Shown here piece by piece: positions 18,001 through 52,102 of a stretch of DNA of 64,000 nt (position 1 is the first letter of the stretch; each line of letters begins with the position of its first letter). Source of the DNA: Escherichia coli 042 (GTDB lineage Bacteria; Pseudomonadota; Gammaproteobacteria; Enterobacterales; Enterobacteriaceae); NCBI RefSeq assembly GCF_000027125.1, contig NC_017626.1. The stretch is one strand, 5' to 3'. The notes under the pieces were generated by a model. The model was not told the origin of the DNA and did no database searches. It saw nothing but the letters and a program-made list of their open reading frames with translations. Both the position numbers and the translations under genes were made by a program.

Positions 18001-18077
18001 GGAGCGGTAGTTCAGTCGGTTAGAATACCTGCCTGTCACGCAGGGGGTCGCGGGTTCGAGTCCCGTCCGTTCCGCCA
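18001..18077 (+). tRNA. aspV: tRNA-Asp (GTC), a known genomic-island integration hotspot
   Basis: Identical 77 nt sequence to the rrnH-distal tRNA-Asp; followed by a hairpin and T-run terminator around 18106..18137. Confidence 0.97.
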
Positions 18078-20008: not shown

Positions 20009-20025
20009 TGTTATTCTCCTTAACC

Positions 20026-21384: not shown

Positions 21385-21394
21385 CACTATCCCC

Positions 21395-24922: not shown

Positions 24923-24941
24923 GGTAACTCCTTGTTATCTT

Positions 24942-26384: not shown

Positions 26385-26388
26385 ATTC

Positions 26389-29861: not shown

Positions 29862-29870
29862 AAGATGTCC

Positions 29871-30644: not shown

Positions 30645-30648
30645 TCAC

Positions 30649-31995: not shown

Positions 31996-31997
31996 CG

Positions 31998-32522: not shown

Positions 32523-33811
32523 GCTTCCGGCTCCCGCTGTTTTTCGCGCAGCACCCGGTCATAGACCTGGGCATAAACTTCATTGAACAGCATTTCAAAT
32601 CCCTGCTGTCGGCTGGAGGCCAGTTCATCGTAATAGTTGCTGTACATCTGCCATGCCCAGGCGTTGTCCATTTTCTGGCGCAGCTCATGGCTGCGGCGGT
32701 ATTGCGCAAAGCGGCGCATCAGGTTGCCCGGCGAGAAGGCGTCCAGCATGACACGCAACGCTTCCACAATCGCCGCCCGGTTGGCCTCTTCATGATGCCG
32801 GATGTTGCGCAGGCTTTCGGCGATGGCCGCAGGTGCGGCGAGATGTACCGGGCTTTTACCCTCGGCGAACATGACGTTCAGCGCGGTGGGATAGTCCATA
32901 TCAAGGCGCAACGGGTTGTCTTCCAGTGGACGCAGGTGTTTATCCGACAGGCTGTTCTGTTGTTGTTGCAGACTCAGCAATCCCTTAATGGCGGCCTGCA
33001 ACGCCCGTCCGGCCTCTTCGAGAAACTCATCCGCATCCTGAGAATTGTGCAGCGTCAGCGGACACTCCATACCGCGCAGCAGCGGGGTTACGGCCAGGTG
33101 GTACTGCGCCATGGCAGAAAATTCATCGCCGTCCTCATGACGGGCATTGCCGGGCGGCAGATCCATAAACGGCGTGTTGATCCCGTTTGCACCTGTCAGA
33201 TCGGAGGCGGGGGCAACGGGCCGGGAAACGCGTGGGGCGATCGGATCATCTGCCACCATCAGGCTTTCCGTCTGGAGTGCCTGGAGCGGATCGCTGGAAA
33301 AACCGTGCGCAACCGTGGGGGCAAGCTGATGCTGGAACGGCATTCCCGGATACGCCGGTTGTCCCTCGGTGGTCAACAGGGTGTCCGCCAGACTGTCGCG
33401 GTTCATTACAATCGTTTCCGGGGTCGCCATCCGCTCGTCATAGGTAACAGCTACACCGTCATGCAGAAACACTTTCAGCGCCAGTGCGCCGAGCTGGATC
33501 TCATCCCCCTGGCGCAGGCGGATGAGCGCATCGGAAGAGACCGGGGCCAGATTAATCATCAGTCCCGGCGTCAGGCACCGCAGGCAATAGGCTCCGTCGT
33601 GCCGGATAACGGTACAGGCACGCGCAGCAATGCTTCCCGCCCGGTCCTGTACCTGCCAGTGACATTCCGGCGTATGGCCAATATCACCGCCGTTTTCGCT
33701 GAACAGGCATTTTGCGGCGCGTCCGCTTTCCAGTTCGTTGCCATTCATCACCTGTAAAGTCAGTGAGGCCTGGCGGGATTGCTGTTTTTCCTCAGCCATA
33801 AGTGGTTCCAT
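32519..33811 (-). CDS. tagH: T6SS FHA-domain protein TagH (Fha)
   Basis: FHA-like N-terminal domain, proline-rich linker, C-terminal helical domain. The ORF-track start at 33907 overlaps tssG, so the start is placed at the internal Met near 33811; the exact start is uncertain. Confidence 0.8.
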   Translation of the reverse strand: MEPLMAEEKQQSRQASLTLQVMNGNELESGRAAKCLFSENGGDIGHTPECHWQVQDRAGSIAARACTVIRHDGAYCLRCLTPGLMINLAPVSSDALIRLRQGDEIQLGALALKVFLHDGVAVTYDERMATPETIVMNRDSLADTLLTTEGQPAYPGMPFQHQLAPTVAHGFSSDPLQALQTESLMVADDPIAPRVSRPVAPASDLTGANGINTPFMDLPPGNARHEDGDEFSAMAQYHLAVTPLLRGMECPLTLHNSQDADEFLEEAGRALQAAIKGLLSLQQQQNSLSDKHLRPLEDNPLRLDMDYPTALNVMFAEGKSPVHLAAPAAIAESLRNIRHHEEANRAAIVEALRVMLDAFSPGNLMRRFAQYRRSHELRQKMDNAWAWQMYSNYYDELASSRQQGFEMLFNEVYAQVYDRVLREKQREPEA

Positions 33812-33815
33812 AGAA

Positions 33816-34865
33816 TTATTCCCTGATTCGGATTGTGATGGCGGGCGGTACTTTCGGCTGACCAATAAAGCTGGTTCTGCCGAGGCGGGAGCTGGCAGGA
33901 TCGCCAAGGCGCATCCCTTTAGCCTGCTGTGGTGCTAGGCACAGCCGTAAATCCCAGGCAAACTGGTCGCGCAGAATAAAGGAAAGGAACATGGTCAGCG
34001 GCAGGTGATTTTCGCCATCGGGTAAAAATGAGAGATAACGCTCCCGCGACAGGCCGCCAATCTGCAACAGGAATTTTCCGCTGCGATCCGGCACCCGTGC
34101 GCCGAGGGTAAAATTAACGCCGAGTATGGAGCGTCCCGGAATATGTCCAGCCGTTTTTCCTTTCGGATTACGTACACCCAGCCGGTTCTGGTGTGCCGGA
34201 TCAATGGCGACTTTACGCAGTTGCCAGCGTTCAATGGTGACATCCGGCAAATCAAAACAGTGCGACACCAGATTACAGATAACCTCCGGCGCGCGGCCTG
34301 GTGTTGCCAGAATTCCGGCGTAGGCCAGCATTTTGCTGTGGTTAATGGCAAGCCTGTCACGCACGCTCTGATTACCCAGCCCGACCAGTGCGTACATGCG
34401 CTGTGAAAAGGTGTCAGTACCGCCGTTACGAAAGCAGATGTAGTAGCGGTATTTGCGCCAGGCATGATAGGCAAACTGTGTCCAGCGGTGGCTGAATAGA
34501 TCGAGAAATTCTTTCAGGCCGTCTTCGTTCTGTGCGGACTCCTGCGCCATCTGATCCAGATAATAGCCCGGTAGCGGCGACTGGCTGCCGGAAAAGCCCA
34601 GGAAACGGGTTTGCAGTACATACTGTCCGTTCTGGCTACGGGAAAGCACACTCAGGTCCGTACCCGGAAAACCGATATTGGCGTCAGAGCTGAAACGCAC
34701 GATCTCTTGGGCTGGCTCGGTACGCAGGGAAATATCCTGGCCCGGAGCGCCATACCGACGGTACAGCGCCTCCATCAGCACATAGAAATTGCAGTTGCGC
34801 ACATCCGCCGATAACGGCGGTTTTGTCGCTATATAAGGGCGTGCTGACCCATTTTCTCCTGCCAT
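33816..34865 (-). CDS. tssG: T6SS baseplate protein TssG
   Basis: 349 aa; position between tssF and tagH; TssG-like sequence. Confidence 0.85.
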   Translation of the reverse strand: MAGENGSARPYIATKPPLSADVRNCNFYVLMEALYRRYGAPGQDISLRTEPAQEIVRFSSDANIGFPGTDLSVLSRSQNGQYVLQTRFLGFSGSQSPLPGYYLDQMAQESAQNEDGLKEFLDLFSHRWTQFAYHAWRKYRYYICFRNGGTDTFSQRMYALVGLGNQSVRDRLAINHSKMLAYAGILATPGRAPEVICNLVSHCFDLPDVTIERWQLRKVAIDPAHQNRLGVRNPKGKTAGHIPGRSILGVNFTLGARVPDRSGKFLLQIGGLSRERYLSFLPDGENHLPLTMFLSFILRDQFAWDLRLCLAPQQAKGMRLGDPASSRLGRTSFIGQPKVPPAITIRIRE

Positions 34866-36688
34866 TCCCAGGCCTCCTGACTTTCCGTGTTGATGATTTT
34901 CAGACAGTGGTACGAATTGATGCTGGCGTAGAGAGCAAAAAAGTGCGAGAGCACTGTACCAAGAAGATAAATTTCACCTTCGCAGATAAATGGATCGGGA
35001 CGTATCCACAGCGTGGTCGCCAGCCCGCGAACCGGCACGCCTTTAAACAACCTGTCAACAGGTTTGGTTTCGAGTTTTTCTATGGCATCCAGTTTCTGGC
35101 GCGACAGTCTGGCCCGCTGCGGATGGTGAGCGCCTGGCAGGTCGAAGGTCCGCAGGATCTGGATCAGTGTCTCCCTGTCCAGCAGGGATAGGTAGTTCAG
35201 GTTCATCGCGGAAATCAGCGACCAGTGCATGTCGCCGTCCGTGACTGGCCAGAGCGGCTGCGTCGGGCGTGTGACATTATGAAATGAGGCCACCGCCGGG
35301 TTTTTGTTGACGGCCACGCAGATATCGCCGATATGCAGCCGAGCAGGGATCATACGGTTGGTACAGATTAATGACGTGGTGATCACATCATCATTAAACC
35401 GTGAGCTGTCCGGAATGCTGCCGTCCGCATGGACAAAGGCGATACTATGTTCAAGCCCGCGGTGAAACAGGGATGTTTTAGTCCGGTGATGCCAGTAGAC
35501 GACTTCCCGCTGGCGGCTGTACTCCATCTGGTGCTGGAAACTTTCAAATTCGGGCCAGACACGCGCCTGGCTGCCAGGGTTGGATTCAGTACCTGAAACT
35601 TTGACTTTGCTGGTGACTGTGCTTATCTGAAAAATGTCATAAGCGTCGGGATGCCGGTGGCTGGCGCGCAGCGGGTATTCCGCTATCCGCCCATCAGGCC
35701 TGACGGGTTCCGCATAATGCGTAAACAGGTTAATGGCTGGCGTACAGTGCAGACGCAGTGAGTCCCGGCGTAGCTTGATGTCGGCAGGTAACGGGCGGTT
35801 AAAGTGCAGGCGCAGCGTAAACGCGCTGGCCGGGAAATCGTCCGGTAGTGGCGCAACATCGCGCAGATGGAAAAAAAAGAAGGCTTCGGGATAGCAGAAA
35901 TACTCCTGGAGTACCCGATAGCCGCTGTGGACATTTTTCGGCCACGGCAGCAGTGCGTCCTGGTTTTCAAATCCGGCGGCCTCCAGCCACAGATCCGGCA
36001 GCGGCAGGCGGTACTCTCCGGCAATCAGTTCCGCATCCATCAGGCATTCGCAAAACCACAGATAAAGTTGGTGTCGGGTATAATCGTCTTCATTACCCAG
36101 CCAGAACGTTATTTTGTTCAGGTCAAGCATGGCGGGGGAGACATTGTTATCTGCGGTAAAACTGATATCTATGATGCCTTCTTTCAGGCTGCTGGCGTTG
36201 TGGGTGTCGAGAATGCGCAGTGGTTGCAGCCAGATATCGCGCGCCAGCGTGAAATGACAGGCTACGGAAGAAACGATTTTATCATGATTGTCAGACAGCA
36301 CCTTCTGAGCAGCCAGGGCGGACTTTTCTGAGCGGCTTCTGATCAGTTCATTACGGCAGACTTGAACAGGGACTTTTAACTGATCGGTTTTGGGTTCATA
36401 GGCAATAACCGTCATGGCCGGAACTGGGCGTAAATAGTTTGCCCACAGCATACGGATTAGCCCATGGGTGAATTCGGGGAATTCGTCCTCAAGTTTCTGA
36501 CGCAGGCTACCGGACATAAAGGCAAAGGCTTCCATCAGACGCTCCACGTCCGGATCACCCTCTTTCTCGGCCAGAAAGTGGGCCAGATGTGGTTTTTCCT
36601 GCGCCAGCAGTTTGCCAAGCTGGCGAAGATAATCCAGCTCTTCGCGGTAGTAACGTTCTTCAAAAGCCACAGAGATCACTCCACACAA
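34829..36688 (-). CDS. tssF: T6SS baseplate protein TssF
   Basis: 619 aa; N-terminal ERYYREELDYLRQLGKLLAQEKPHLA motif typical of TssF; overlaps tssE. Confidence 0.9.
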   Translation of the reverse strand: MCGVISVAFEERYYREELDYLRQLGKLLAQEKPHLAHFLAEKEGDPDVERLMEAFAFMSGSLRQKLEDEFPEFTHGLIRMLWANYLRPVPAMTVIAYEPKTDQLKVPVQVCRNELIRSRSEKSALAAQKVLSDNHDKIVSSVACHFTLARDIWLQPLRILDTHNASSLKEGIIDISFTADNNVSPAMLDLNKITFWLGNEDDYTRHQLYLWFCECLMDAELIAGEYRLPLPDLWLEAAGFENQDALLPWPKNVHSGYRVLQEYFCYPEAFFFFHLRDVAPLPDDFPASAFTLRLHFNRPLPADIKLRRDSLRLHCTPAINLFTHYAEPVRPDGRIAEYPLRASHRHPDAYDIFQISTVTSKVKVSGTESNPGSQARVWPEFESFQHQMEYSRQREVVYWHHRTKTSLFHRGLEHSIAFVHADGSIPDSSRFNDDVITTSLICTNRMIPARLHIGDICVAVNKNPAVASFHNVTRPTQPLWPVTDGDMHWSLISAMNLNYLSLLDRETLIQILRTFDLPGAHHPQRARLSRQKLDAIEKLETKPVDRLFKGVPVRGLATTLWIRPDPFICEGEIYLLGTVLSHFFALYASINSYHCLKIINTESQEAWEWQEKMGQHALI

Positions 36689-37101
36689 TAGCGTTGATGA
36701 TTGTCCAGCAAAATGTCAAATTCAAACACTCCCCTGGTTTCGCTGACATCGACCGTAGCCACAATATGAAAACGTAGTTCCACAGGGGCGTATTCATCCG
36801 GTGCCGCAGCCGTAACAACAACATCGGTAATACGAGGTTCGTAATGTAAAATGCACTGGCTAATGGACTTACGGATTTCTCGTCTGAAATCGCTGGAGGC
36901 CAGCGATTCATCATTTAAATCAGTAATCCCCAGCTCTGGTGAGCCATAACAACTGCCGGAGCGGGTATTCAGGACCTGTCGCAGGTTACGTCTGATGGAA
37001 CGTATCAGTGCTTCTTTTGTATTCTGGTATGAAGGCGGGTTGGCCGCCTCACGAATACGTTCAAAAAGACTGCTGGTTGGCCCTGAATCCCGTCTTTGCA
37101 T
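36676..37101 (-). CDS. tssE: T6SS baseplate protein TssE (gp25-like)
   Basis: 141 aa gp25/GPW-like protein. Confidence 0.88.
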   Translation of the reverse strand: MQRRDSGPTSSLFERIREAANPPSYQNTKEALIRSIRRNLRQVLNTRSGSCYGSPELGITDLNDESLASSDFRREIRKSISQCILHYEPRITDVVVTAAAPDEYAPVELRFHIVATVDVSETRGVFEFDILLDNHQRYCVE

Positions 37102-37105
37102 CTGA

Positions 37106-38590
37106 TTATTCCTTATCCAGTCGTCCGACCAGACTCAGGTCGAAACTGGCACCCATGTATTTAAAATGCGGTCTGACAGAAATCGCGACCTGGTACCAGC
37201 CTGGCTCACCATCCACATCAAGTACCTCGATCTTCGCCTGACGTAATGGTCGGTGGCTGCGGACTTCGGCAGGCGGATTCTCCTGGTCGGCCACATACTG
37301 GCGAATCCAGGTGTTCAGCTCACGCTCCAGGTCACTGCGTTCTTTCCATGAGCCAAGCTGTTCGCGCTGAATTACCTTGATGTAATGCGCTAACCTACTG
37401 ATTACAAATAAGTATGGCAGCTGAGTGCCGAGTTTATAGTTGGTCTCCGCAGCCTTGCCTTCGGGGGTTTTGGGGAATTTTTTGGGTTTCTGCACCGAGT
37501 TGGCCGAGAAAAAGCACGCATTATCAGATCCTTTACGCATGGTCAGTGTGATAAAGCCTTCTTCCGCCAGCTCATACTCTCTCCGGTCAGTGATCAACAC
37601 TTCAGTCGGAATTTTTGCCTGCATTTGCCCCATGGATTCATACAGATGCACCGGGAGGTCTTTGACTGCGCCGCCGCTGGAAGGGCCAATGATATTGGGA
37701 CACCAGCGATATTTAGCAAAACTTTCAGCCAGGTTCGCAGCTAGTAAAAACGAGGTGTTCCCCCACAAATAAGACTCGTGACTCTGGCTGACGTCTTCAT
37801 GGTAACGGAAGGTCCTGGCTGGGTTCTCATCTGGCGAGTAAGGGTGACGCAGCAGGAACCGGGGGGCAGTCAGTCCCAGGTAGCGTGAATCTTCAGATTC
37901 ACGCAAGGCACGCCAGCGGGAATAGGCCGGGCCTTCAAAGATTGCTCCTGGTTCTTTGATCCCTGGTAACTCTGTCCATGAGTCCAGACCGAAAAATTCG
38001 GATGATACTGATGAGAGGAACGGGCTGTGCGCCATCGCACTGACCTGGCTGATATATTTCAGCAACTTCATATCCGGCGTGGTGTTCTTAAAGGCAAAGT
38101 TGCCGATTACCGCCGCCACTGGCTCACCGCCAAATTGTCCGTAACCGCTTGAATATACATGCTTGTAATACGCAGACTGCGTGATTTCAGGTGCAAATTC
38201 GAAATCATCCAGCAGTTCTTCCTGAGTGACATTCAGGAAATGGACCTTGATGTTTTCCCGTGTATCCGCGCGTTCAACCAGCAGCTTCAGCGAGCGCAGC
38301 AGGGATTCCAGTTCCTGAAACTCCGGGGCATGAATAATGGCATCCATCTGCCTGCTGGTTCGGGCATCAATATCAGCAATCATGGCGTCAACGGCCAGGA
38401 TATTGATAGGTTCAGCGCTACTGTCGCCCTGTAACATGGCGGCAATAAAGGCGCTCACGCCCTGGCGGGTGATATCGTAGCTTTCTGATTTAGGCTGGAC
38501 GCGGGTTTGCGCCATGATTTCATCAAGCAGAGATGGGGGCGCGGCGGTTTGCGACGCGCTGACGGGAGCAATATCTTCCTTTACTGACAT
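37106..38590 (-). CDS. tssC: T6SS contractile sheath large subunit TssC (VipB)
   Basis: 494 aa VipB-family sequence immediately downstream of tssB. Confidence 0.93.
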   Translation of the reverse strand: MSVKEDIAPVSASQTAAPPSLLDEIMAQTRVQPKSESYDITRQGVSAFIAAMLQGDSSAEPINILAVDAMIADIDARTSRQMDAIIHAPEFQELESLLRSLKLLVERADTRENIKVHFLNVTQEELLDDFEFAPEITQSAYYKHVYSSGYGQFGGEPVAAVIGNFAFKNTTPDMKLLKYISQVSAMAHSPFLSSVSSEFFGLDSWTELPGIKEPGAIFEGPAYSRWRALRESEDSRYLGLTAPRFLLRHPYSPDENPARTFRYHEDVSQSHESYLWGNTSFLLAANLAESFAKYRWCPNIIGPSSGGAVKDLPVHLYESMGQMQAKIPTEVLITDRREYELAEEGFITLTMRKGSDNACFFSANSVQKPKKFPKTPEGKAAETNYKLGTQLPYLFVISRLAHYIKVIQREQLGSWKERSDLERELNTWIRQYVADQENPPAEVRSHRPLRQAKIEVLDVDGEPGWYQVAISVRPHFKYMGASFDLSLVGRLDKE

Positions 38591-38612
38591 ACTGAAAATC
38601 CTTCTGTGAAAA

Positions 38613-39116
38613 TTATTTCTGAGCGGCGATACCCAGTTCTTGGATCAGCTGCTCGCGGCTGTCTTCGTTTTCCAGTAGCGCCTGAAGTTGTGCGCGGAAG
38701 GCCGGAATATTGCCTAGTGGAGACTTAAGTGCGACCAGAGCTTCACGCAATTCGAGCAGACGTTTTATTTCTGGTACCTGGCTGGCAATATGGTCCGGAG
38801 AAAGGTCATCCATAGATTTGACTTTCAGGTTGACGTACATTTGCTCATTGGGAGCGTCACTGAGTTCAGCCGGAACAACAAACTCCCGTTCAATGTCAGC
38901 TTCTGAAATGACTGCGTTGAGGTTATAGCGGTTGATAGCAATGGCAGTTCGCTCGTCCAACGGCGTGTTATCTGGTTTCCCTTTCAGATTGCCGGTGATC
39001 AATAAATTCAGCGGCAATTCGATATCAGCAGCCACCCCATCAACTTTTGGTGTATACCGAACGCTGATTCTTTCTTTCGGCGCGACACTGCCGCCATTGT
39101 TGTTCATTTTGCTCAT
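38613..39116 (-). CDS. tssB: T6SS contractile sheath small subunit TssB (VipA)
   Basis: 167 aa VipA-family sequence; first gene of the minus-strand operon. Confidence 0.93.
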   Translation of the reverse strand: MSKMNNNGGSVAPKERISVRYTPKVDGVAADIELPLNLLITGNLKGKPDNTPLDERTAIAINRYNLNAVISEADIEREFVVPAELSDAPNEQMYVNLKVKSMDDLSPDHIASQVPEIKRLLELREALVALKSPLGNIPAFRAQLQALLENEDSREQLIQELGIAAQK

Positions 39117-39818: not shown

Positions 39819-40337
39819 ATGCCAACCCCATGTTACATTTCAATTACAGGTCAGACCCAGGGGAACATCACTGCCGGTGCTTTCACCGCAGATTCTGTCG
39901 GCAATATCTACGTGCAGGGACACGAAGATGAAATGCTGGTGCAGGAGTTTCTGCATAACGTTACTGTTCCAACCGATCCACAGTCTGGTCAACCTTCCGG
40001 GCAGCGCGCGCACAAACCGTTCATTTTCACCGTGGCGCTGAACAAAGCCGTTCCGCTGCTGTACAACGCGCTGGCCTCCGGTGAAATGCTGCCGAAAGTG
40101 GAGCTGCACTGGTGGCGTACTTCAGTTGAAGGCAAGCAGGAGCACTACTTCACCACACGTCTTACTGACGCGACGATTGTGGACATGAACCTGCACATGC
40201 CGCACTGCCAGGACCCTGCACAGCGTGAGTTTACGCAATTGCTCGCAGTATCACTGGCATACCGTAAGGTTGAGTGGGAGCACATCAAATCCGGTACTTC
40301 TGGTGCCGATGACTGGCGTGCACCGCTGGAAGCATAA
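39819..40337 (+). CDS. hcp: Type VI secretion tube protein Hcp (TssD), first gene of the divergent operon
   Basis: 172 aa starting MPTPCYISITGQTQGNITAGAF, recognised as Hcp1-family; AAGGAG ribosome-binding site upstream. Confidence 0.93.
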   Translation: MPTPCYISITGQTQGNITAGAFTADSVGNIYVQGHEDEMLVQEFLHNVTVPTDPQSGQPSGQRAHKPFIFTVALNKAVPLLYNALASGEMLPKVELHWWRTSVEGKQEHYFTTRLTDATIVDMNLHMPHCQDPAQREFTQLLAVSLAYRKVEWEHIKSGTSGADDWRAPLEA

Positions 40338-40557: not shown

Positions 40558-42516
40558 ATGTCCTTAAAAGGTCTGCGCTTTACGCTGGAGATTGACGGCC
40601 AGGAGCCGGACACCTTTGCAGTGGTGCATTTCAGGTTAATCCAGAACCAGTCTTATCCGTTTGTGATGAGTGTGGATGTTGCCAGCGACTCTTTTATGCA
40701 GACGGCGGAGATGCTGCTGGAGAAGAAGGCGACGCTGACCATCTGGCAGGGCGTCATCCCGCTGCGTTATGTCACCGGCGTGGTGGCGGGTTTTGGCATG
40801 CAGGAGAACAATGGCTGGCAGATGCGTTATCACCTGCGTATTGAGCCGCCGTTATGGCGGTGCGGGCTGCGGCAGAACTTCCGTATCTTCCAGCAGCAGG
40901 ATATCCGGACGATATCGGCCACGTTACTGAACGAGAACGGCGTCACGGAGTGGACACCGCTGTTTTATGAGGACCATCCGGCGCGGGAGTTCTGTGTCCA
41001 GTACGGGGAAAGCGACCTGGCGTTTCTGGCGCGGTTGTGGGCGGAGGAGGGAATTTTCTTCTTTGAGCGGTTTGCGGCGGACAGTCCGGAGCAGAAGCTG
41101 ACGCTGTGCGACGATGTGGCGGGGCTGTCACAGGCGGGAGAGCTTCCGTTTAACCCGGACACATCGGCAGGAGCGGAGACAGAGTGTGTCAGTATGTTCC
41201 GTTATGAGGCGTATGTCCGCCCGTCGTCGGTGCAGAGCCAGGATTACACGTTTAAGGTGCCGGACTGGCCGGGGATGTATGAGCAGCAGGGTGAGAACCT
41301 GAACGGACAGCTGGAGCAGTATGAGATATTTGATTATCCGGGAAGGTTCAAGGATGAACAGCACGGCAAGGATTTCACGCTGTACCAGATGGAGAGCCTG
41401 CGCAGTGATGCGGAAAAGGCCACAGGGCAGAGTAATTCACCGAAGCTGTGGCCGGGAACGCGGTTTACGCTGACGGGGCATCCGCAGAAGATGCTGAACC
41501 GTGAATGGCAGGTGGTACAGAGTATTCTGTCAGGGGACCAGCCGCAGGCGCTGCACGGCAGCCAGGGGAGAGGAACCACGCTGGGAAATCAGTTAGAGGT
41601 GATACCGGCGGACCGGACGTGGCGTCCACGGCTGCAAAGCAAACCGAAGGTGGACGGGCCACAGAGCGCCATTGTCACCGGTCCTGCGGGAGAGGAAATC
41701 TTCTGCGACGAACACGGACGTGTGCGAGTGCAGTTTCACTGGGACAGGTATAACCCGGCAACGGAGGCGAGTTCATGCTGGGTGAGGGTGTCGCAGGCGT
41801 GGGCGGGGCCGGGATTTGGTAACCTGGCGATACCGCGCATCGGCCAGGAAGTGATTGTAGACTTCCTGAACGGCGACCCGGACCAGCCGATAATCATGGG
41901 GCGGACGTACCATGAGGACAACCGTTCGCCGGGGAGTCTGCCGGGGACGAAGACGCAGATGACGATACGGTCGAAGACCTATAAAGGAAGCGGCTTTAAT
42001 GAACTGCGGTTCGAGGACGCGACGGACAAGGAAGAAATTTACCTGCACGCACAGAAAAATATGCAAGTCGTTGTGCTGAACAGCAAGGATAAGCGGGTCA
42101 ACTATGACCGGACGGTCAGCATCGGGCATGATGAATCCCTGGTGGTGGCAAATGACCGGAAAGTGACGGTTGAAGGTAAACAGGACCATAAAACCACCAA
42201 AGACCATGTCAGCCTGACAGAGGGCAATCAGGGGCTGGAGGTGAAAGGCGATCTGGCACAGAAAATAAGCGGCGCGCTGGGTATCAGCGTACAGGGCGAT
42301 ATTGTTTTACAGAGCGACAGCAAAATCAGTCTGCGGGTGGGCGGTTCATTTGTGGTGATCCATTCCGGCGGCGTGGATATTAAGGGCGCGAAAATCAATC
42401 TTAACGGCGGAGGCAGTCCGGGAGACGTGATCCTGCCGATGCGCCCGGTGATCCTGAAAGCCGCAGCCGGAAGCGGGACAATGTTTGTGGCGCACTGCCC
42501 GAAGGAGGATAAGTGA
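40558..42516 (+). CDS. vgrG: T6SS spike protein VgrG (TssI)
   Basis: 652 aa; gp27-like N-terminus, gp5-like OB fold and repeat region; no obvious C-terminal effector extension. Confidence 0.92.
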   Translation: MSLKGLRFTLEIDGQEPDTFAVVHFRLIQNQSYPFVMSVDVASDSFMQTAEMLLEKKATLTIWQGVIPLRYVTGVVAGFGMQENNGWQMRYHLRIEPPLWRCGLRQNFRIFQQQDIRTISATLLNENGVTEWTPLFYEDHPAREFCVQYGESDLAFLARLWAEEGIFFFERFAADSPEQKLTLCDDVAGLSQAGELPFNPDTSAGAETECVSMFRYEAYVRPSSVQSQDYTFKVPDWPGMYEQQGENLNGQLEQYEIFDYPGRFKDEQHGKDFTLYQMESLRSDAEKATGQSNSPKLWPGTRFTLTGHPQKMLNREWQVVQSILSGDQPQALHGSQGRGTTLGNQLEVIPADRTWRPRLQSKPKVDGPQSAIVTGPAGEEIFCDEHGRVRVQFHWDRYNPATEASSCWVRVSQAWAGPGFGNLAIPRIGQEVIVDFLNGDPDQPIIMGRTYHEDNRSPGSLPGTKTQMTIRSKTYKGSGFNELRFEDATDKEEIYLHAQKNMQVVVLNSKDKRVNYDRTVSIGHDESLVVANDRKVTVEGKQDHKTTKDHVSLTEGNQGLEVKGDLAQKISGALGISVQGDIVLQSDSKISLRVGGSFVVIHSGGVDIKGAKINLNGGGSPGDVILPMRPVILKAAAGSGTMFVAHCPKEDK

Positions 42517-43355
42517 TGGAAACGGCACCCGTGCAGTACGCCATTGTGGATGGCGCTGTGGAGGAAGGATTGCTGGATTTTCTGAACGAGGTGAATCCCC
42601 CGCACTGTTGTCTGTATGCAGAACCCATACAACTGGATCTGGTCGCGCTAGCCCCCTATCTCGTGGAAGTCGTTCCGGAGGTTGAAGCATGGCTGAGTGT
42701 TAAGGCGTCGCCATGGGGAATATATCTGACTTCTGAGTCATCCATGCGTGAGCTACAGCAACACTTCAGACGTTATCTGTGGGTTAGGATCCCCGAACAG
42801 GAGAAACCTGTTCTCATGCGATTTTATGATCCCCGGAATATATGGGTATTAGTGGAAGTTCTGACCCCCCGCCAGCGTCTTTCTTTTATCAGTCCCGTCA
42901 GACAGCTAAGTACCCGTTATGGTGAAGAATGTCGTGAGGATAATTTTTCTTCCGTCCGTCCCGCAGAAACTATGAATATAAGGGCAGAACGGCCATCACA
43001 ACTGACGCTGAGTTACAGACAATATAGCCAACTGGAACGAAAGGCACGGGATAATTATCTTGATATATTATCTGCATTTATCGAAGAAAATGTAGATAAA
43101 AACGGATGGGATGATTCATCAAAAGCTGAATCATCCCGAATTCTGGCAGAAGATTATTTCTCTTTTTGCCAGTCATTAAATATAGCAGATGATCGTTCCG
43201 TCAGAACAATGACGCTTATATTACTGAAAAAAAATATAATCGATCTCAGATATATTCCGGATGACTGGTATGAACAACTCAGCAATCAGTCATACCCGGG
43301 ACATATTCGGGTACATGAACTTGCACAACAGGAACTGGGATTTATCCCACAATAA
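42513..43355 (+). CDS. DUF4123-family T6SS effector adaptor/chaperone (Tap/Tec-like)
   Basis: 280 aa; N-terminal QYAIVDGAV motif characteristic of DUF4123; start overlaps the vgrG stop by 4 bp. Confidence 0.7.
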   Translation: MMETAPVQYAIVDGAVEEGLLDFLNEVNPPHCCLYAEPIQLDLVALAPYLVEVVPEVEAWLSVKASPWGIYLTSESSMRELQQHFRRYLWVRIPEQEKPVLMRFYDPRNIWVLVEVLTPRQRLSFISPVRQLSTRYGEECREDNFSSVRPAETMNIRAERPSQLTLSYRQYSQLERKARDNYLDILSAFIEENVDKNGWDDSSKAESSRILAEDYFSFCQSLNIADDRSVRTMTLILLKKNIIDLRYIPDDWYEQLSNQSYPGHIRVHELAQQELGFIPQ

Positions 43356-43376
43356 AAAGACAAACGGATAGATTAT

Positions 43377-44948
43377 ATGACATCTCCATCTTCGACAGCC
43401 GGAAAGCCCTGTGTGGAATGCGGCATTCCTGATCCATGTATTTTTGATGTTATTAGTGATTTTCCAGAGGCCGGCGAGAAACATTTCTGGTCAAAAGAAG
43501 GAGTGGCGCGTTTTAAGCTACTGGATGATGGTTCCGGATGTGATGGTATAATTACCATTACCTACCAGTGCGATAAAAGTGGAACACATGAGGCATGGTT
43601 AGAGGAAGAATCAGAAAATAATCATAAGATACTGCAACCTTTCGGAATACCTAATAAGGTCACTTTGGATGATAACTTGTCTGAAGGTGAAATAATTGCT
43701 ATGGGTACATTTCGAGTACCATGGGATTATTTGGGGGCAATATCCTCTCCACTTAAGAATCATTATGAACCTGCCCATTATTCAGTCAGAATTGACAGTT
43801 GTTACGAATGTGGCAATTATGTTGAAATTGATGTTTATCCTACAGTGGAAATTAGGTTTACTACAGGGTTCAGCTATGAGATTTCGTCATCAAAACAGAC
43901 GAGAACAGTAAAAGAGCGGCGTGACGAAAGAATAAAAGCCAGGGACGCAATGGAGAACACCAAGCCCAGGGATAAAAATAAACTCCGTAGCGGCTGGACA
44001 AATACCACTGCTGAGTTTGAGTGGATAAACAAGACTTCCCTGACTGTCGATTTTGGCGTAAAAATAGCTAATGTTGAACACACAAGTGAATATGAAAAAG
44101 AGATAAAAAAACTTCGACAAACAAAGCAACTGGAACAGATAGGAAGAATTGACTCTCTGGTCAAGAATGTCAATAAATATTTTGCGCCAGATCCTGACAA
44201 TAATAATGGTACGCGCAAATATGCATTGTTCAGTGCAAAAATAGAACCCGTTAAACTGGGTATATCGTATGCCTATCAATATACCGATATCCAGGATGGC
44301 CCCTGTCATTTTTATGGTTTGTTTGGTGCCCCATTTTTTGAAGCGTCGTTCAGATTCGATATTATTTCATTTATATGTGCATATTGTAAAGTCGAGTCAT
44401 TGGTCAACAGATGTCGTGAATATCTCCGTAAAAACGGAGCCAGTGTTGAATGCTATATCGAGATTTCAGCGGAGATTAATCTTGATCTTGGCGCAGTATA
44501 CGCTGAAAAGGATAAAAAATGGGAGTTTAATGTAAAGGAAAGTAACATCAAGCTCGGTTTAAAAGGTGTGGTGAGTGCGACGTTTGAGGCGAATGTTTTT
44601 GTTGTACAACTGACCGCCGAAGCGACTGCCTCTATAGAAGCGAAAGCTGGATTTGGATTTGATTCACATGATGACGGACTGGACCTAGCATTATTTCATG
44701 ACGGCATTAAAGGGAAGTTTGAATTTAAGATTGATGTGTCTCATGGTGAAGTTGATGAAAAAGGAAAGGGGAAGGAAAAGAGCGAAAAACCTGAGAAGAA
44801 AGATACCGTTGAGTGGCAGTTATGTGATCCTATGGAGGTAAAGGATTCACCATTACGGGTTAATTTATACGGTAAAGAACGCACTGTGGAGAAAAAAGTA
44901 ACACCGCCGAAGCCAGTGACAACGTGGACGATAGGTATGGATTATTAA
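43377..44948 (+). CDS. Hypothetical protein, candidate T6SS cargo effector of unknown activity
   Basis: 523 aa, no signal peptide, Cys-rich N-terminal third, Lys/Glu-rich C-terminal tail; directly downstream of vgrG and the DUF4123 adaptor. No recognisable catalytic motif seen by eye. Confidence 0.55.
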   Translation: MTSPSSTAGKPCVECGIPDPCIFDVISDFPEAGEKHFWSKEGVARFKLLDDGSGCDGIITITYQCDKSGTHEAWLEEESENNHKILQPFGIPNKVTLDDNLSEGEIIAMGTFRVPWDYLGAISSPLKNHYEPAHYSVRIDSCYECGNYVEIDVYPTVEIRFTTGFSYEISSSKQTRTVKERRDERIKARDAMENTKPRDKNKLRSGWTNTTAEFEWINKTSLTVDFGVKIANVEHTSEYEKEIKKLRQTKQLEQIGRIDSLVKNVNKYFAPDPDNNNGTRKYALFSAKIEPVKLGISYAYQYTDIQDGPCHFYGLFGAPFFEASFRFDIISFICAYCKVESLVNRCREYLRKNGASVECYIEISAEINLDLGAVYAEKDKKWEFNVKESNIKLGLKGVVSATFEANVFVVQLTAEATASIEAKAGFGFDSHDDGLDLALFHDGIKGKFEFKIDVSHGEVDEKGKGKEKSEKPEKKDTVEWQLCDPMEVKDSPLRVNLYGKERTVEKKVTPPKPVTTWTIGMDY

Positions 44949-45014
44949 GTGATATTACAGAAATTAAAAGTGAACAGTATAATGAGTATTTTCCCCTTTT
45001 GAGAGAGAATAATT

Positions 45015-46025
45015 ATGAAGGCAAAACATTTAATATCGGTTATTTTACTGTCAGGAGTTGTTATGGGAACTGGATTTTGCTCTAACGATAACCAGCAAAA
45101 AATTCGCAGTAAGTTTAATATTGAAGAGTCATATTGTGCCATTAAGACTAATGGCGTCCTCGGGTTCAGTAACCGAAGAAGTGCCTGGCGGGCAAATGGT
45201 GATTCAACCGGGGCCATATCCAGCACCAATGCCATGATGCTGATGGCGAATGGAGAAAATGAAATCAGTCTGGAGATTGGGGCATTAGGATGGTTTTCTG
45301 ACAAGCCTGCCAGTATGGAAGAACGGGGGCGTTTTTTTCCAAAAGCAGGATGCAGCCTGGATTTGGTTCGTTTTATTAAACAGGAGGAAACGCTGCTTTC
45401 TTCAATAAAAGTGACCATCAACCAGCAGGGCATACCTGAAGCCCGGCCAGACAGCGTGCATCCCGTTATCCGGAAAGAGATTTTGGCTGAGCAGGCGGAG
45501 CCAGGATTTATTGATCCAGATTATTTTGATGAAACCTATTTCCCGAAAGGGATGAAGGTGTATCAGTTCACTCAAAAAGTTACCGTGACAGGGCTTCCTG
45601 AATGGGCCTGGACGCGGGCAACCCCCTATACCGGAAGCGACGAGCAGTTACGGAAGTTAAAAGCCGCCTATACCGAAATGGCAAGCATCATCAGTAGCCG
45701 GGACAGGGCACGTCTGAAAGCTTATAACAAAGAGGCGCTGAAGGCATGGTCAGCCACAACCGGTGACTCTGAGGATGACATATTACTCTCACTCTTCTCA
45801 AAAGATAATGTGGAGGGAGGGAAAGCCAGAATGCAGCCCATCAGGTGGGACGATTATGCCGTCCGGGTTATGAATGGTGGACGTATGGTGCAGCTATATA
45901 ATAAATCGAAACCAATATATTCCCCACTGACTTACCGTTTTACAGATGAAAGTGGTGAAGAGCGTATGGGGTATTACGCTCCGGTATTTTCGCTGATTGA
46001 TGGTCAGTTTATCCCTGTTACTTGA
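45015..46025 (+). CDS. Hypothetical exported protein, candidate cognate immunity protein
   Basis: 336 aa with N-terminal signal peptide (MKAKHLISVILLSGVVMGTGFC); immediately downstream of the candidate effector. Confidence 0.5.
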   Translation: MKAKHLISVILLSGVVMGTGFCSNDNQQKIRSKFNIEESYCAIKTNGVLGFSNRRSAWRANGDSTGAISSTNAMMLMANGENEISLEIGALGWFSDKPASMEERGRFFPKAGCSLDLVRFIKQEETLLSSIKVTINQQGIPEARPDSVHPVIRKEILAEQAEPGFIDPDYFDETYFPKGMKVYQFTQKVTVTGLPEWAWTRATPYTGSDEQLRKLKAAYTEMASIISSRDRARLKAYNKEALKAWSATTGDSEDDILLSLFSKDNVEGGKARMQPIRWDDYAVRVMNGGRMVQLYNKSKPIYSPLTYRFTDESGEERMGYYAPVFSLIDGQFIPVT

Positions 46026-46337
46026 TTAACCTGTTGGGCTACAAATCAGGATGTCCGGTAAGGTGATTATTACTGAGTTAAGCACCTTACCGTTTTTTAA
46101 ATTTTTTGTCGCTGATATTCCAGACAGGAAAACAATATGCCTTTAGCTGCCAGATTAAACGACAAAGGTACCGGCACAGGGAAAGATCACGTAACGCTGC
46201 TTTTTTGTACTAAATAATTCGCATTTTATGTTTAAAATTTGAGATATTCCTCATTACCTGAGGCTGTTTTTTATTACTTATACATGATCAAATACTCCTT
46301 ACATAATTAAGGGGAACAAAATGGAACTTAAAAATTG

Positions 46338-47262
46338 ATGGAACATATTTCTGTTATTCCCGATTACAGACAAGCCTGGAAAGTGGAACATAAATTGTCG
46401 GATATTCTACTGTTGACTATTTGTGCCGTTATTTCGGGTGCAGAAGGTTGGGAAGATATAGAGGATTTTGGGGAAACACATCTCGATTTTTTAAAACAAT
46501 ACGGTGATTTTGAAAATGGTATTCCTGTTCACGATACCATCGCCAGAGTTGTATCCTGTATCAGTCCTGCAAAATTTCACGAGTGCTTTATTAACTGGAT
46601 GCGAGATTGCCATACTTCAGATGATAAAGACGTCATCGCAATTGATGGAAAAACGCTCCGGCACTCTTATGACAAGAGTCGCCGCAGGGGAGCGATTCAT
46701 GTCATTAGTGCGTTCTCAACAATGCACAGCCTGGTCATCGGACAGATCAAGACGGATGAGAAATCCAATGAGATTACAGCTATCCCAGAACTTCTTAACA
46801 TGCTGGATATTAAAGGAAAAATCATCACAACTGATGCGATGGGTTGCCAGAAAGATATTGCAGAGAAGATACAAAAACAGGGCGGTGATTATTTATTCGC
46901 TGTAAAAGGAAATCAGGGGCGGCTTAATAAAGCCTTTGAGGAAAAATTCCCACTGAAAGAATTAAATAATCCAGAGCATGACAGTTACGCAATGAGTGAA
47001 AAGAGTCACGGCAGAGAAGAAATCCGTCTTCATATTGTTTGCGATGTCCCTGATGAACTTATTGATTTCACGTTTGAATGGAAAGGACTGAAGAAATTAT
47101 GCGTGGCAGTCTCCTTTCGGTCCATAATAGCAGAACAAAAGAAAGAGCCAGAAATGACGGTCAGATATTATATCAGTTCTGCTGATTTAACCGCAGAGAA
47201 GTTCGCCACAGCAATCCGAAACCACTGGCACGTGGAGAATAAGCTGCACTGGCGTCTGGACG
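46338..47262 (+). CDS. ISAs1-family transposase (H-repeat-associated protein), exon 1 of intron-interrupted gene
   Basis: Matches the intact copy at 49523..50659 up to ...[14 protein letters not shown] 1 nt shorter A-run than in copy 2 removes the MELKKL leader, so the start shifts to the ATG at 46338. The ORF-track tail [10 protein letters not shown] is intron-encoded read-through. Confidence 0.75.
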
Positions 47263-49153
47263 GTGTGCCGCAGGAACACAAGATAGCTGCATAAGGATAC
47301 GCAGTTAGCTTTTGTATAAGCTCATAAAGAGATGGTGGAAGGCCCACCGGGATCGGCTGTCGGAAGCAGATTCCAAACCACTTCATGCTGCTGTGGTAAA
47401 GAGCCATGGTAGTGAGCGATGAAGTAAAGCGTGAGTGAAAACTCAGCAGGTAAGATACTCATGAGACGAGTGAACCCGAACCCATGTTGACGCGTCGTAA
47501 ACCAGAGACTGACATCAAAACCGAAGGGGCGTCCAGCCTTCGGGATAAGTCTGCGAGTGAATTCCGAATGCTGCGCAGACGGTGTCCGGCGTAAAGTGGG
47601 CGTGACGGAGTATCAGGCTCTTCCTGGGAACTGCGGGAACCTGTCGTTGTGATGATAAGGGAGAAATGCAAGTCACTGAATTGGCGAGCATGAAAGTACC
47701 GATGCACAGCACAGGGACGGAGCCGTTCGTAGTAGTGATGAAGCTTCTGTAATGGAGGTGGAGCGAAGGGGCGGCATCAGACAGTCTTTGGACAGTGTTC
47801 AACTGAACATGTTCAGGAGGAGACAATGACAAAGACAAAAGCGTTTAACATTGATAAGTCACTGGTGGTCAGCGCGTACAGGCGAGTGAAGACCAGTGCA
47901 GGCGCGGCGGGAATTGATAAGCAATCGCTGGCGGACTTTGATAAACGGTTAGTTGATAATCTGTACAAAATCTGGAACCGACTTTCTTCAGGAAGTTATT
48001 TCCCACCGGCAGTGAAAGCGGTGGCAATTCCGAAGAAATTGGGTGGAGAGAGAATTCTGGGTATCCCGACAGTCAGCGATCGTATCGCGCAGACGGTGGT
48101 AAAACTGGCCTTTGAGCCACAGGTTGAGCCACATTTTCTGGCAGACTCTTACGGCTACAGACCGAATAAATCGGCACTGGATGCTATAGGGGTAACGCGT
48201 AAGCGTTGCTGGTATTACGACTGGGTACTGGAATTTGACATCAAAGGGCTGTTCGATAACATCCCGCACGAACTGATAATGAAAGCCGTGGACAAACACA
48301 ATCCGGCCCGGTGGGTAAAATTGTATATACAGCGGTGGCTGACAGCGCCGATGGTGATGTCAGACGGAGAAGTCAGAGCACGAACAATGGGAACGCCGCA
48401 GGGAGGTGTCATAAGTCCGTTGCTGGCAAACCTGTTCATGCATTATGTGTTTGATAAATGGCTGGCAAAATATTATCCGAAAGTGCCGTGGTATCGATAT
48501 GCTGATGATGGCATTTTGCATTGTCACAGCGAAGCAGAAGCGACTGAAATGCGAGAAGTATTACGCAAAAGATTTAGCGAATGCGGACTGGAAATGCATC
48601 CGGAGAAAACGCGAGTTATCTACTGCAAAGATGGAAGCCGGAAGGGTGATTATGAACATACCATGTTCGACTTTCTGGGGTACACATTCAGGCGACGCGT
48701 AGTAAAGAACGTTAAGCGAAACAGTCTGTTTGTAAGTTTTACCCCCGCAGCGAGCAAATCAGCGCTAAAGGCAATGCGTCGGGAAATCAAAGCGACAGGG
48801 ATAAGGAAAAGAGTGGATTTAAGCATTGAGCAGATAGCGAAATGGATAAATCCAAAACTGAATGGCTGGATAAATTATTACGGGCGATATACCTGTTCGG
48901 AATTATACAGCGTGTTCAGATATATCAATAAAGCACTGGTGAGGTGGGGGCGTAAGAAATATAAAATGCTCAGCCGATACAAGACAAGAGCCTCAAAATT
49001 TCTGGAAGAAATGGCGAAGCGAAGTCCACAGTTGTTTGCCCACTGGCGTCTGAAGATGAGAGGCGGACTTGTTTGATGGGAGCGGTATGAGCCGAGAGGT
49101 TCACGTACCGTTCTGCGAGAGGCTGCGGGGGAGGTTCCTGCGGCCTACTCACC
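47263..49153 (+). mobile_element. Group II intron (about 1.9 kb) inserted in the transposase gene
   Basis: Insert begins GTGTG (GUGYG consensus), contains the RT/maturase ORF in the position of domain IV, has a domain V-like hairpin (GAGCGGTATGAGCCGAGAGGTTCACGTACCGTTC, about 49080..49114) and ends just before the exon 2 sequence seen in the intact copy. Boundaries are good to about 1 nt. Confidence 0.8.
47826..49076 (+). CDS. Group II intron-encoded reverse transcriptase/maturase
   Basis: 416 aa; RT motifs including YADD ([11 protein letters not shown]) and a C-terminal maturase (domain X) region. Confidence 0.88.
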
Positions 49154-49347
49154 TGGTAATGAATGAAGACGACTGCAAAATAAGAAGAGGAAATGCAGCA
49201 GAATTATTTTCAGGGATACGGCACATCGCTATTAATATTTTGACGAATGATAAGGTATTCAAGGCAGGGTTAAGACGTAAGATGCGAAAAGCAGCCATGG
49301 ACAGAAACTATCTGGCGTCAGTCCTTGCGGGGTGCGGGCTTTCGTAA
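49154..49347 (+). CDS. ISAs1-family transposase, exon 2 (C-terminal 64 codons)
   Basis: Encodes [63 protein letters not shown], nearly identical to the C-terminus of the intact copy; joins exon 1 in frame. Confidence 0.75.
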
Positions 49348-49378
49348 TCTTTCCCTGGATGTGAAAAGCAGCTGCGGA

Positions 49379-50669
49379 CAGGGAAAGATCATCAGAAGTA
49401 CACTTTTTGTACTAAACAATTCGCATTTTATGTTTAAAAATTGAGATATTCCTCATTACCTGAAGCTGTTTTTTATTGCTTATACATGATCAAATACTCC
49501 TTACATAATTAAGGAGAACAAAATGGAACTTAAAAAATTGATGGAGCATATTTCTATTATCCCCGATTACAGACAAGCCTGGAAAGTGGAACATAAATTA
49601 TCGGATATTCTACTGTTGACTATTTGTGCCGTTATTTCTGGTGCAGAAGGTTGGGAAGATATAGAGGATTTTGGGGAAACACATCTCGATTTTTTGAAGC
49701 AATATGGTGATTTTGATAATGGTATTCCTGTTCACGATACCATTGCCAGAGTTGTATCCTGTATCAGTCCTGCAAAATTTCACGAGTGCTTTATTAACTG
49801 GATGCGTGACTGCCATTCTTCAGATGATAAAGACGTCATTGCAATTGATGGAAAAACGCTCCGACACTCTTATGACAAGAGTCGCCGCAGGGGAGCGATT
49901 CATGTCATTAGTGCGTTCTCAACAATGCACAGCCTGGTCATCGGACAGATCAGGACGGATGAGAAATCTAATGAGATTACAGCTATCCCTGAACTTATTA
50001 ACATGCTGGATATTAAAGGAAAAATCATCACAACTGATGCGATGGGTTGCCAGAAAGATATTGCAGAGAAGATACAAAAACAGGGAGGTGATTATTTATT
50101 CGCTGTAAAAGGAAACCAGGGGCGGCTAAATAAAGCCTTCGAGGAAAAATTTCTGCTGAAAGAATTAAATAATCCAGAGCATGACAGTTACGCAATTAGT
50201 GAAAAGAGTCACGGCAGAGAAGAAATCCGTCTTCACATTGTTTGCGATGTCCCTGATGAACTTATTGATTTCACGTTTGAATGGAAAGGTCTGAAGAAAT
50301 TATGCGTGGCAGTCTCCTTTCGGTCAATAATAGCAGAACAAAAGAAAGAGCCCCAAATGACGGTCAGATATTATATCAGTTCTGCTGATTTAACCGCAGA
50401 GAAGTTCGCCACAGCAATCCGAAACCACTGGCACGTGGAGAATAAGCTGCACTGGCGTCTGGACGTGGTAATGAATGAAGACGACTGCAAAATAAGAAGA
50501 GGAAACGCAGCAGAATTATTTTCAGGGATACGGCACATTGCTATTAATATTTTGACGAATGATAAGGTATTCAAGGCAGGGTTAAGACGTAAGATGCGAA
50601 AAGCAGCCATGGACAGAAACTACCTGGCGTCAGTCCTTGCGGGGAGCGGGCTTTCGTAATCTTGCCCTG
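49379..50669 (+). mobile_element. ISAs1-family (H-repeat) insertion sequence, copy 2 (intact), in tandem 21 bp after copy 1
   Basis: Inverted repeats CAGGGAAAGATCATC and TTCGTAATCTTGCCCTG at the ends; 1291 bp. Confidence 0.8.
49523..50659 (+). CDS. ISAs1-family transposase (H-repeat-associated protein), intact
   Basis: 378 aa, [50 protein letters not shown]...; DDE-type H-repeat transposase. Confidence 0.88.
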
Positions 50670-51861: not shown

Positions 51862-51887
51862 TTAATAACATAATTACTGCAAATAAT

Positions 51888-52102
51888 ATCGTAATTTTGA
51901 AAATGGTAATCCTGTTCACGGCACCATAATTAGAGTTATGTCTTGTATCCGTTCAGTATAATTTCACGAATGCTTTATTAACTGGATGCGAGATTGCCAT
52001 TCATCAAATGATAAAGACGTCATCGCAATTGATGGAAAAGCGCTTCCACACTCCTATGATAAAAGTGGTCGCAGGGGAGCGGGCTTTCGTAGTCTTAGCC
52101 CG
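51888..52102 (+). pseudogene. yafF: Internally deleted ISAs1-family (H-repeat) remnant, yafF-like pseudogene
   Basis: Matches transposase codons roughly 55 to 118 ([35 protein letters not shown]) fused at a GGGGAGCG microhomology to the last about 20 bp of the IS right end (GGCTTTCGTAGTCTTAGCCCG). Confidence 0.75.

What the first reader, a model, noticed from the sequence alone, without database searches (positions are those of the whole stretch)
40558..46025. No PAAR-domain gene in the locus; VgrG lacks a C-terminal extension
No small PAAR-like ORF is evident next to vgrG or elsewhere in the island, and the 652 aa VgrG ends soon after its gp5-like repeats. The spike tip protein must be encoded elsewhere, or this system fires without a dedicated PAAR. 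Either way, cargo loading probably relies on the DUF4123 adaptor.
Basis: inference. Interest (0 to 1): 0.3.

Follow-up and report, generated by a model that had tools for sequence, protein, structure and literature searches.

The report
IS-truncated PAAR gene beside T6SS spike module
This E. coli type VI secretion island has no working spike-tip (PAAR) gene because an insertion sequence cut its own PAAR gene down to 12 codons; an intact copy sits in a second small island elsewhere in genomes of the same lineage, so this is ordinary gene decay.

Summary
A Pfam scan of every stop-to-stop ORF of at least 55 aa across 17.9-53.1 kb, plus the annotated genes, finds no PAAR or DUF4150 domain. The same model scores a related 94-aa PAAR at 5e-21. 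VgrG (652 aa) is a minimal spike: it aligns end to end with the 643-aa P. aeruginosa VgrG1 and ends about 35 residues after the beta-helix.

The absence is secondary. At 46137-46172, 111 nt after the immunity gene, lie the first 36 nt (12 codons) of a 94-aa PAAR gene. They are 36/36 identical to the PAAR that follows the homologous immunity gene in strain EcPF14. The match stops where an ISAs1/ISEc1-family element begins, and the rest of the gene is nowhere in the window.

About 173 complete E. coli genomes carry this locus type, including an ST69 strain. Both proxy genomes examined, A10 and CE0007a, have an intact PAAR-VgrG(801 aa)-M35 island at yncG.

The vgrG-DUF4123-effector-immunity module is the published ECUMN_0231-0233 system of UPEC UMN026. 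Low novelty.

The parts
18001..18077 (+). tRNA-Asp (aspV), left boundary of the T6SS island
   Evidence: ARAGORN; annotation of CE0007a
19529..39116 (-). T6SS core block: second hcp, VasL/ImpA_N protein, tssM, tssA, vasI, tssH, tssL (dotU), tssK, tssJ, tagH, tssG, tssF, tssE, tssC, tssB. All are intact ORFs.
   Evidence: PGAP annotation of CE0007a, which is 99.98% identical; Pfam hits for hcp2 and VasL
39819..40337 (+). hcp (172 aa)
   Evidence: T6SS_HCP 1.5e-32
40558..42516 (+). vgrG/tssI, 652 aa. A minimal spike: gp27-like, OB and gp5 beta-helix domains up to about residue 620, then a tail of about 35 aa and no extension domain.
   Evidence: A 652-aa VgrG of the same length is annotated as intact in EcPF14 and FDAARGOS_1372.
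42516..43355 (+). DUF4123 adaptor (Tec/Tap class; ECUMN_0231 type). Its start overlaps the vgrG stop (TGATG).
   Evidence: PF13503 1.7e-25; weak match to the Tla1 chaperone model; its N-terminal domain is shared with the FDAARGOS_1372 adaptor while the C-terminal part differs
43377..44948 (+). Putative cargo effector, 523 aa (ECUMN_0232 type). No known domain and not PAAR-like.
   Evidence: PMC11114119
45015..46025 (+). Putative immunity lipoprotein, 336 aa (ECUMN_0233 type), with N-terminal signal peptide MKAKHLISVILLSGVVMG
   Evidence: Translation matches the signal peptide quoted in PMC11114119
46026..46136 (+). Intergenic region upstream of the former PAAR gene. It aligns without gaps, with 3 mismatches in 111 nt, to the immunity-PAAR intergenic region of EcPF14.
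   Evidence: Alignment A3
46137..46172 (+). PAAR gene stub: the first 12 codons (MPLAARLNDKGT), 36/36 nt identical to the start of a 94-aa PAAR gene
   Evidence: blastn E=2e-13 and tblastn; alignment
46173..49357 (+). ISAs1/ISEc1-family element, copy A. The terminal inverted repeats CAGGGAAAGAT / ATCTTTCCCTG begin at 46177. Its transposase gene is split by a group II intron.
47263..49153 (+). Group II intron with ltrA (47826-49076), inserted in IS copy A
   Evidence: RVT_1 and GIIM domains; Rfam RF01999 and RF00029; IS-A versus IS-B comparison
49378..50669 (+). ISEc1 copy B, intact (378-aa transposase)
51881..52096 (+). ISAs1-family fragment abutting yafV, at the right end of the island

Best explanation
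The region is the variable arm of the aspV-linked type VI secretion island of an E. coli lineage that includes an ST69 strain. It carries one complete cargo module. A minimal VgrG (652 aa) has a module-specific C-terminal part, and its short tail is read by a DUF4123 adaptor encoded by the next, translationally coupled gene. The adaptor loads a 523-aa domain-less effector, and a 336-aa lipoprotein gives self-protection. In the ancestral arrangement this module was followed by a 94-aa PAAR gene that opened the next PAAR-vgrG module. An ISAs1/ISEc1-family element now sits after codon 12 of that gene, and everything beyond it has been deleted. The island therefore has no PAAR of its own. The spike is most likely capped in trans by the one remaining free-standing PAAR of the lineage, encoded with a second vgrG (801 aa) and an M35 peptidase in a small island at yncG, about 1.3 Mb away. 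What is shown: the gene content, the stub, the IS junction and the presence of the distant PAAR in related genomes. What is inferred: trans-capping, adaptor-mediated loading and the effector's activity.
For: Stub and junction: the 36/36-nt match to the PAAR start, preceded by a near-identical intergenic region, ends where IS homology starts. No other PAAR or vgrG fragment lies in the window.

Ancestral layout: in EcPF14 the homologous immunity gene is followed by PAAR-vgrG801-M35. In the main cluster of FDAARGOS_1372, a vgrG652-DUF4123-effector-immunity module is followed by PAAR and a vgrG fragment. A sampled record of the 88%-identity variant keeps an intact PAAR at this position.

PAAR elsewhere: an identical island at yncG is present in A10 and CE0007a. 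It matches PAAR_motif at 5e-21 and NF033420 at 1.4e-46 and is nearly identical to the crystallised E. coli PAAR, PDB 4JIW chain D. The lineage counts agree, 178 against about 173, and at least 19 accessions are shared.

Machine intact: all core genes are unbroken.

Adaptor logic: the DUF4123 hit, the TGATG coupling, and an adaptor whose N-terminal 100 aa are conserved while its C-terminal part changes with the effector. The module is described as a chaperone/effector/immunity system, expressed in LB and urine (PMC11114119).
Against: Nothing shows that this T6SS fires, or that the distant PAAR fits VgrG652. The antibacterial activity of UMN026 was measured without T6SS mutants. The exact source genome of the window was not available, so 'elsewhere in the genome' rests on near-identical proxy genomes. 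PAAR-Rhs proteins elsewhere in the genome were not surveyed. No target-site duplication or deletion partner for the IS event was identified, so the order of insertion and deletion is unknown.
Confidence: 0.75

Rival explanations
1. The island is a decaying, non-functional T6SS. Loss of PAAR is one step in erosion by IS elements, and the module is no longer delivered.
For: Two IS copies, an IS fragment, a group II intron and an ICE gene fragment fill 46.2-52.1 kb. PGAP flags vgrG as a pseudogene in some records. The killing by UMN026 was not shown to depend on the T6SS.
Against: All core genes are intact and the locus is conserved at 99% identity or better in about 173 complete genomes. A 652-aa VgrG is annotated as intact in other genomes and matches functional minimal VgrGs in length. 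vgrG and the three module genes are transcribed (PMC11114119 abstract).
Confidence: 0.15
2. The system fires with a bare VgrG trimer and needs no PAAR.
For: There is no PAAR in the island. From general knowledge, PAAR-less mutants of some species keep residual T6SS activity.
Against: An intact PAAR of the same family is kept in the same genomes. From general knowledge (Shneider 2013; Cianfanelli 2016), PAAR is needed for efficient assembly in the systems tested.
Confidence: 0.08
3. Another protein of the module, such as the Cys-rich N-terminus of the 523-aa effector, takes the place of PAAR as a cryptic tip.
For: The effector family has invariant cysteines at positions 12, 15 and 21. An N-terminal motif is shared with the unrelated-looking effector of FDAARGOS_1372.
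Confidence: 0.02

Closest known systems
ECUMN_0231/0232/0233 chaperone-effector-immunity system of UPEC UMN026 (PMC11114119)
   Same: Same gene order after vgrG, a DUF4123 domain at residues 9-122, a domain-less effector, and an immunity protein with the identical signal peptide MKAKHLISVILLSGVVMG.
   Different: The paper does not mention the PAAR stub, the IS junction or where the spike tip comes from. UMN026 itself could not be fetched here.
E. coli free-standing PAAR c1882 (PDB 4JIW) and PAAR-vgrG orphan islands
   Same: The stub and the yncG PAAR belong to this 94-aa family. As in other strains, PAAR directly precedes a vgrG.
   Different: In the window only 12 codons remain. The working copy is outside the window.
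Minimal VgrG spikes such as P. aeruginosa VgrG1a (PDB 4MTK, 643 aa)
   Same: End-to-end alignment (residues 39-620 against 37-615) and no C-terminal effector or TTR domain.
   Different: The last ~150 residues are module-specific. The same E. coli lineage also has an 801-aa paralogue with an acidic linker and an extra C-terminal domain.
DUF4123 adaptors (V. cholerae Tap-1/Tec and VasW; A. tumefaciens Tap-1)
   Same: Pfam family, position between vgrG and the effector, and a cargo that lacks PAAR (PMC11114119, citing Liang 2015, Unterweger 2015 and Bondage 2016).
   Different: No binding data exist for this adaptor, and its effector belongs to an uncharacterised Enterobacterales family.

Membership tests
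PAAR (PF05488 / NF033420) | A PAAR-motif domain of about 70 aa detectable by the family HMM | tested here: not met
   No hit at E<=1 in any ORF of at least 55 aa across 17.9-53.1 kb. Only a 12-codon stub remains at 46137-46172. The control PAAR scores 5e-21 and 1.4e-46.
PAAR (PF05488 / NF033420) | An intact PAAR gene somewhere in the same genome | tested here: inconclusive
   Met in the proxy genomes A10 and CE0007a, with co-occurrence across the lineage. The window's own genome could not be scanned.
VgrG/TssI | gp27-like hub, OB fold and gp5 beta-helix | tested here: met
   Phage_GPD 5.5e-74, Phage_base_V 2e-14, Gp5_trimer_C 5.7e-23; TIGR03361 2.5e-179
Evolved/specialised VgrG | A C-terminal extension domain (DUF2345, TTR or a toxin) after the beta-helix | tested here: not met
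   No domain beyond residue 573 in Pfam. The alignment with a 643-aa VgrG ends at residue 620, followed by a tail of about 35 aa.
DUF4123 T6SS adaptor (Tec/Tap) | A PF13503 domain, with the gene lying between vgrG and its cargo | tested here: met
   1.7e-25 over residues 9-122; gene order
DUF4123 T6SS adaptor (Tec/Tap) | Binds the VgrG tail and the effector, and is required for effector secretion | not testable with these tools
   Only indirect support: the N-terminal domain is conserved alongside the same VgrG tail, while the C-terminal part varies with the effector.
ISAs1 family (ISEc1 / H-rpt) | DDE_Tnp_1 transposase with the DDE_Tnp_1_assoc domain, and terminal inverted repeats | tested here: met
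   Pfam; PGAP names; inverted repeats CAGGGAAAGAT / ATCTTTCCCTG read from the sequence
Group II intron | Catalytic RNA domains plus an RT/maturase ORF | tested here: met
   RF01999 at 105.5 bits and RF00029 at 58.3 bits; RVT_1 and GIIM

The most novel reading that the evidence does not exclude
The 523-aa ECUMN_0232-type cargo may represent an undescribed class of beta-rich, membrane-inserting T6SS toxin. In this lineage a single distant PAAR would then be the one tip shared by two different VgrG spikes (652 and 801 aa), so one small gene at yncG would gate delivery of both cargo modules.
Probability: 0.25. Interest if true: 0.4.

Novelty: already known. Interest (0 to 1): 0.15.

Why it matters
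It corrects a tempting misreading. The island is not a PAAR-independent T6SS. It lost its own tip gene to an IS element and probably borrows one from a satellite island. For people working on the ECUMN_0231-0233 module in ST69/UMN026-type UPEC, this points to the yncG PAAR as a gene to delete when testing whether the system is active. It also shows how IS elements, together with the near-identical 5' parts of vgrG paralogues, reshuffle and prune cargo modules. PGAP's 'missing C-terminus' flag on this vgrG in some records is probably an annotation artefact.

Tried and rejected
1. Six-frame Pfam scan for PAAR and DUF4150: nothing found.
2. tblastn and blastn of four E. coli PAARs against the whole window: only the stub, with all other hits at noise level.
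3. A search for the missing part of PAAR, or for any vgrG801 or M35 fragment, after each IS end: none found.
4. Effector as a hidden PAAR: hhalign probability 0.2%.
6. NCBIfam on the effector, the immunity protein and the 261- and 167-aa ORFs: no families.
7. UMN026 record NC_011751.1: not in the collection.
8. The afdb50 fold library: not available.
9. Paper searches on aspV and on PAAR reviews added nothing decisive.
10. I avoided committing to a T6SS-1 or T6SS-2 label. PMC11114119 assigns UMN026 to T6SS-2, but I did not check the classification myself.
Full report
**What the window is.** The window is E. coli chromosome running from metN and rrnH through tRNA-Asp (aspV, 18001-18077) to a Flag-2 flagellar cluster. 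It is 99.98% identical without gaps to strain CE0007a over 22000-56874 and 100% identical to strain A10 over 39500-64000, so their PGAP annotation can be carried over. Between aspV and yafV lies a type VI secretion island.

The island contains, in order:
- A 261-aa unknown ORF.
- On the minus strand, a second hcp and a VasL/ImpA_N gene, followed by tssM, tssA, vasI, tssH, tssL, tssK, tssJ, tagH, tssG, tssF, tssE, tssC and tssB, all intact.
- On the plus strand, hcp, vgrG, a DUF4123 gene, a 523-aa ORF and a 336-aa ORF.
- A stretch of mobile DNA.

**Checking the observation.** I listed all 271 stop-to-stop ORFs of at least 55 aa in six frames across 17.9-53.1 kb. The 247 that are not annotated genes were scanned against Pfam at E<=1. 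Ten of the 24 left out as annotated genes were scanned separately; the other 14 (the tss core genes, yafV and ivy) rest on their PGAP names in CE0007a. Neither PAAR_motif (PF05488) nor Tox-PAAR-like (PF13665) appears. As a positive control, the 94-aa PAAR genes of related E. coli loci score 5e-21 with the same model and 1.4e-46 with NCBIfam NF033420.

VgrG has the gp27-like, OB and gp5 domains and nothing after them. It aligns over residues 39-620 with the 643-aa VgrG1 of P. aeruginosa (PDB 4MTK), and its beta-helix matches the gp5 fragment used in the PAAR co-crystal 4JIW. After the shared end of the helix (...KINLNGGGSPG) only about 35 residues follow. A 652-aa VgrG of the same length, 91-100% identical across every alignment window, is annotated as intact in EcPF14 and FDAARGOS_1372. 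The 'missing C-terminus' flag in CE0007a is therefore likely an annotation artefact. Both parts of the observation are confirmed.

A tblastn and blastn search of four E. coli PAAR genes against the whole window gave one hit above noise. Window 46137-46172 is 36/36 nt identical (E=2e-13) to the first 12 codons (MPLAARLNDKGT) of the PAAR gene that follows the homologous immunity gene in EcPF14. The alignment shows the 3' end of the immunity gene, the 111-nt intergenic region (3 mismatches) and these 36 nt all colinear with EcPF14. The sequences then diverge completely at 46173.

From 46173-46177 onward the window matches the left end of ISAs1/ISEc1-family elements found in thousands of E. coli genomes. 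The inverted repeats CAGGGAAAGAT / ATCTTTCCCTG delimit copy A (to 49357), which is itself split by a group II intron at about 47263-49153. The intron is supported by ltrA, Rfam RF01999 and RF00029. A second, intact ISEc1 follows at 49378-50669, and a third fragment at 51881-52096 abuts yafV. Codons 13-94 of PAAR, and any vgrG or M35 fragment, are absent from the window. The island's own PAAR gene was therefore truncated by an IS-associated event that also removed whatever lay beyond it.

**What lay beyond it.** In EcPF14 an island at yncG reads PAAR, vgrG652, DUF4123, effector (frameshifted), immunity, PAAR, vgrG801, M35 peptidase. In the main cluster of FDAARGOS_1372, hcp, vgrG652, DUF4123, effector and immunity are followed by PAAR, a vgrG fragment, IS elements and further PAAR-vgrG modules. 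The variable arm of these islands is thus a chain of PAAR-vgrG-cargo modules.

All VgrG paralogues are 88-100% identical over their first ~500 residues and diverge after that. This gives ample homology for modules to be swapped or lost. About 173 complete genomes have the window-type immunity gene with the IS junction at 99% identity or better. A further set of about 150 covers at least 80% of the query at lower identity, and the one sampled (88%) has an intact PAAR at that position.

**Where the tip comes from.** Using gene order as a guide, I located the yncG locus in CE0007a and in A10, the best proxy for the window. Both have yncG, PAAR (94 aa, WP_001127492.1), VgrG (801 aa) and peptidase M35. 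This PAAR is nearly identical to the crystallised E. coli PAAR in 4JIW chain D. The 94-aa PAAR family occurs in 688 of 5426 complete genomes, and the A10 allele at 99% identity or better occurs in 177. The yncG-PAAR-vgrG junction at 99% or better is in 178 records. At least 19 accessions among the 60 listed also appear in my partial lists of genomes with the window-type locus, including an O15:H18 ST69 strain. The lineage therefore keeps a single free-standing PAAR outside the main island. That it caps VgrG652 is an inference.

**The cargo module.** The DUF4123 gene starts at the vgrG stop (TGATG). Its first ~100 residues are shared with the adaptor that follows the same VgrG in FDAARGOS_1372 (100%, 87% and 60% identity in successive 40-residue windows), whereas the rest is unrelated (17%), as are the effectors. 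This is the pattern expected if the DUF4123 domain reads the VgrG tail and the variable part holds the cargo.

The three genes are the ECUMN_0231/0232/0233 chaperone/effector/immunity system described in UPEC UMN026. The signal peptide quoted in that paper is identical to the N-terminus of the window's 336-aa ORF. The paper reports expression in LB and urine and antibacterial activity, but used no T6SS mutants and does not discuss PAAR supply.

**Verdict.** The added fact is that the absence is secondary: a 12-codon PAAR stub lies against an ISEc1-family end. This is ordinary IS-driven pruning of a modular T6SS arm in a locus already described in the literature, so novelty and interest are low. 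The main open points are experimental: whether this T6SS fires, and whether the yncG PAAR is needed for it.

Noticed in passing
window 47263-49153: A group II intron (ltrA 47826-49076; Rfam RF01999 at 47334-47451 and RF00029 at 49078-49153) is inserted inside the transposase gene of an ISEc1-family element: one mobile element nested in another.
   Followed up: partly
window 45015-46025: PGAP starts the immunity gene at 45063 (320 aa), which removes the signal peptide. The longer ORF from 45015 (336 aa) carries the signal/lipoprotein sequence reported for ECUMN_0233 and is the more plausible start.
   Followed up: partly
window 40558-42516; L001 18559-20460: PGAP marks this vgrG as a pseudogene ('missing C-terminus') in CE0007a and other records, yet a 652-aa protein of the same length is annotated as intact in EcPF14 and FDAARGOS_1372. 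This is probably an annotation artefact caused by longer paralogues.
   Followed up: yes
window 43377-43500; L004 13447-13560: Two otherwise very divergent DUF4123-linked effectors share an N-terminal motif (S-[ST]-TAG-x-P-x(1,2)-C-x(1,2)-C-x(0,1)-x-PD-x-C). In the 30-sequence family alignment C12, C15 and C21 are invariant. It may be the adaptor-recognition element.
   Followed up: partly
window 19529-21387: A second hcp (160 aa) and a VasL/ImpA_N (TssA-like) gene lie beyond tssM at the aspV end of the island, next to a 261-aa ORF (18404-19189) that matches no family.
   Followed up: partly
window 50779-51861: A 167-aa ORF with no family and a DUF2859 'integrating conjugative element protein' sit between ISEc1 copy B and an IS fragment. 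They have no similarity to the related T6SS loci that were fetched, and their origin is unknown.
   Followed up: partly
window 60682-64000: Start of a Flag-2 type second flagellar cluster (flhA, flhB, fliR and others). CE0007a has an ISEc31 insertion just before it that the window and strain A10 lack.
   Followed up: no
L003 13478-15027: In the yncG island of EcPF14, the copy of the 523-aa effector gene is frameshifted, while its adaptor, immunity gene and flanking PAAR genes are intact. The same module decays in a different way in another lineage.
   Followed up: no
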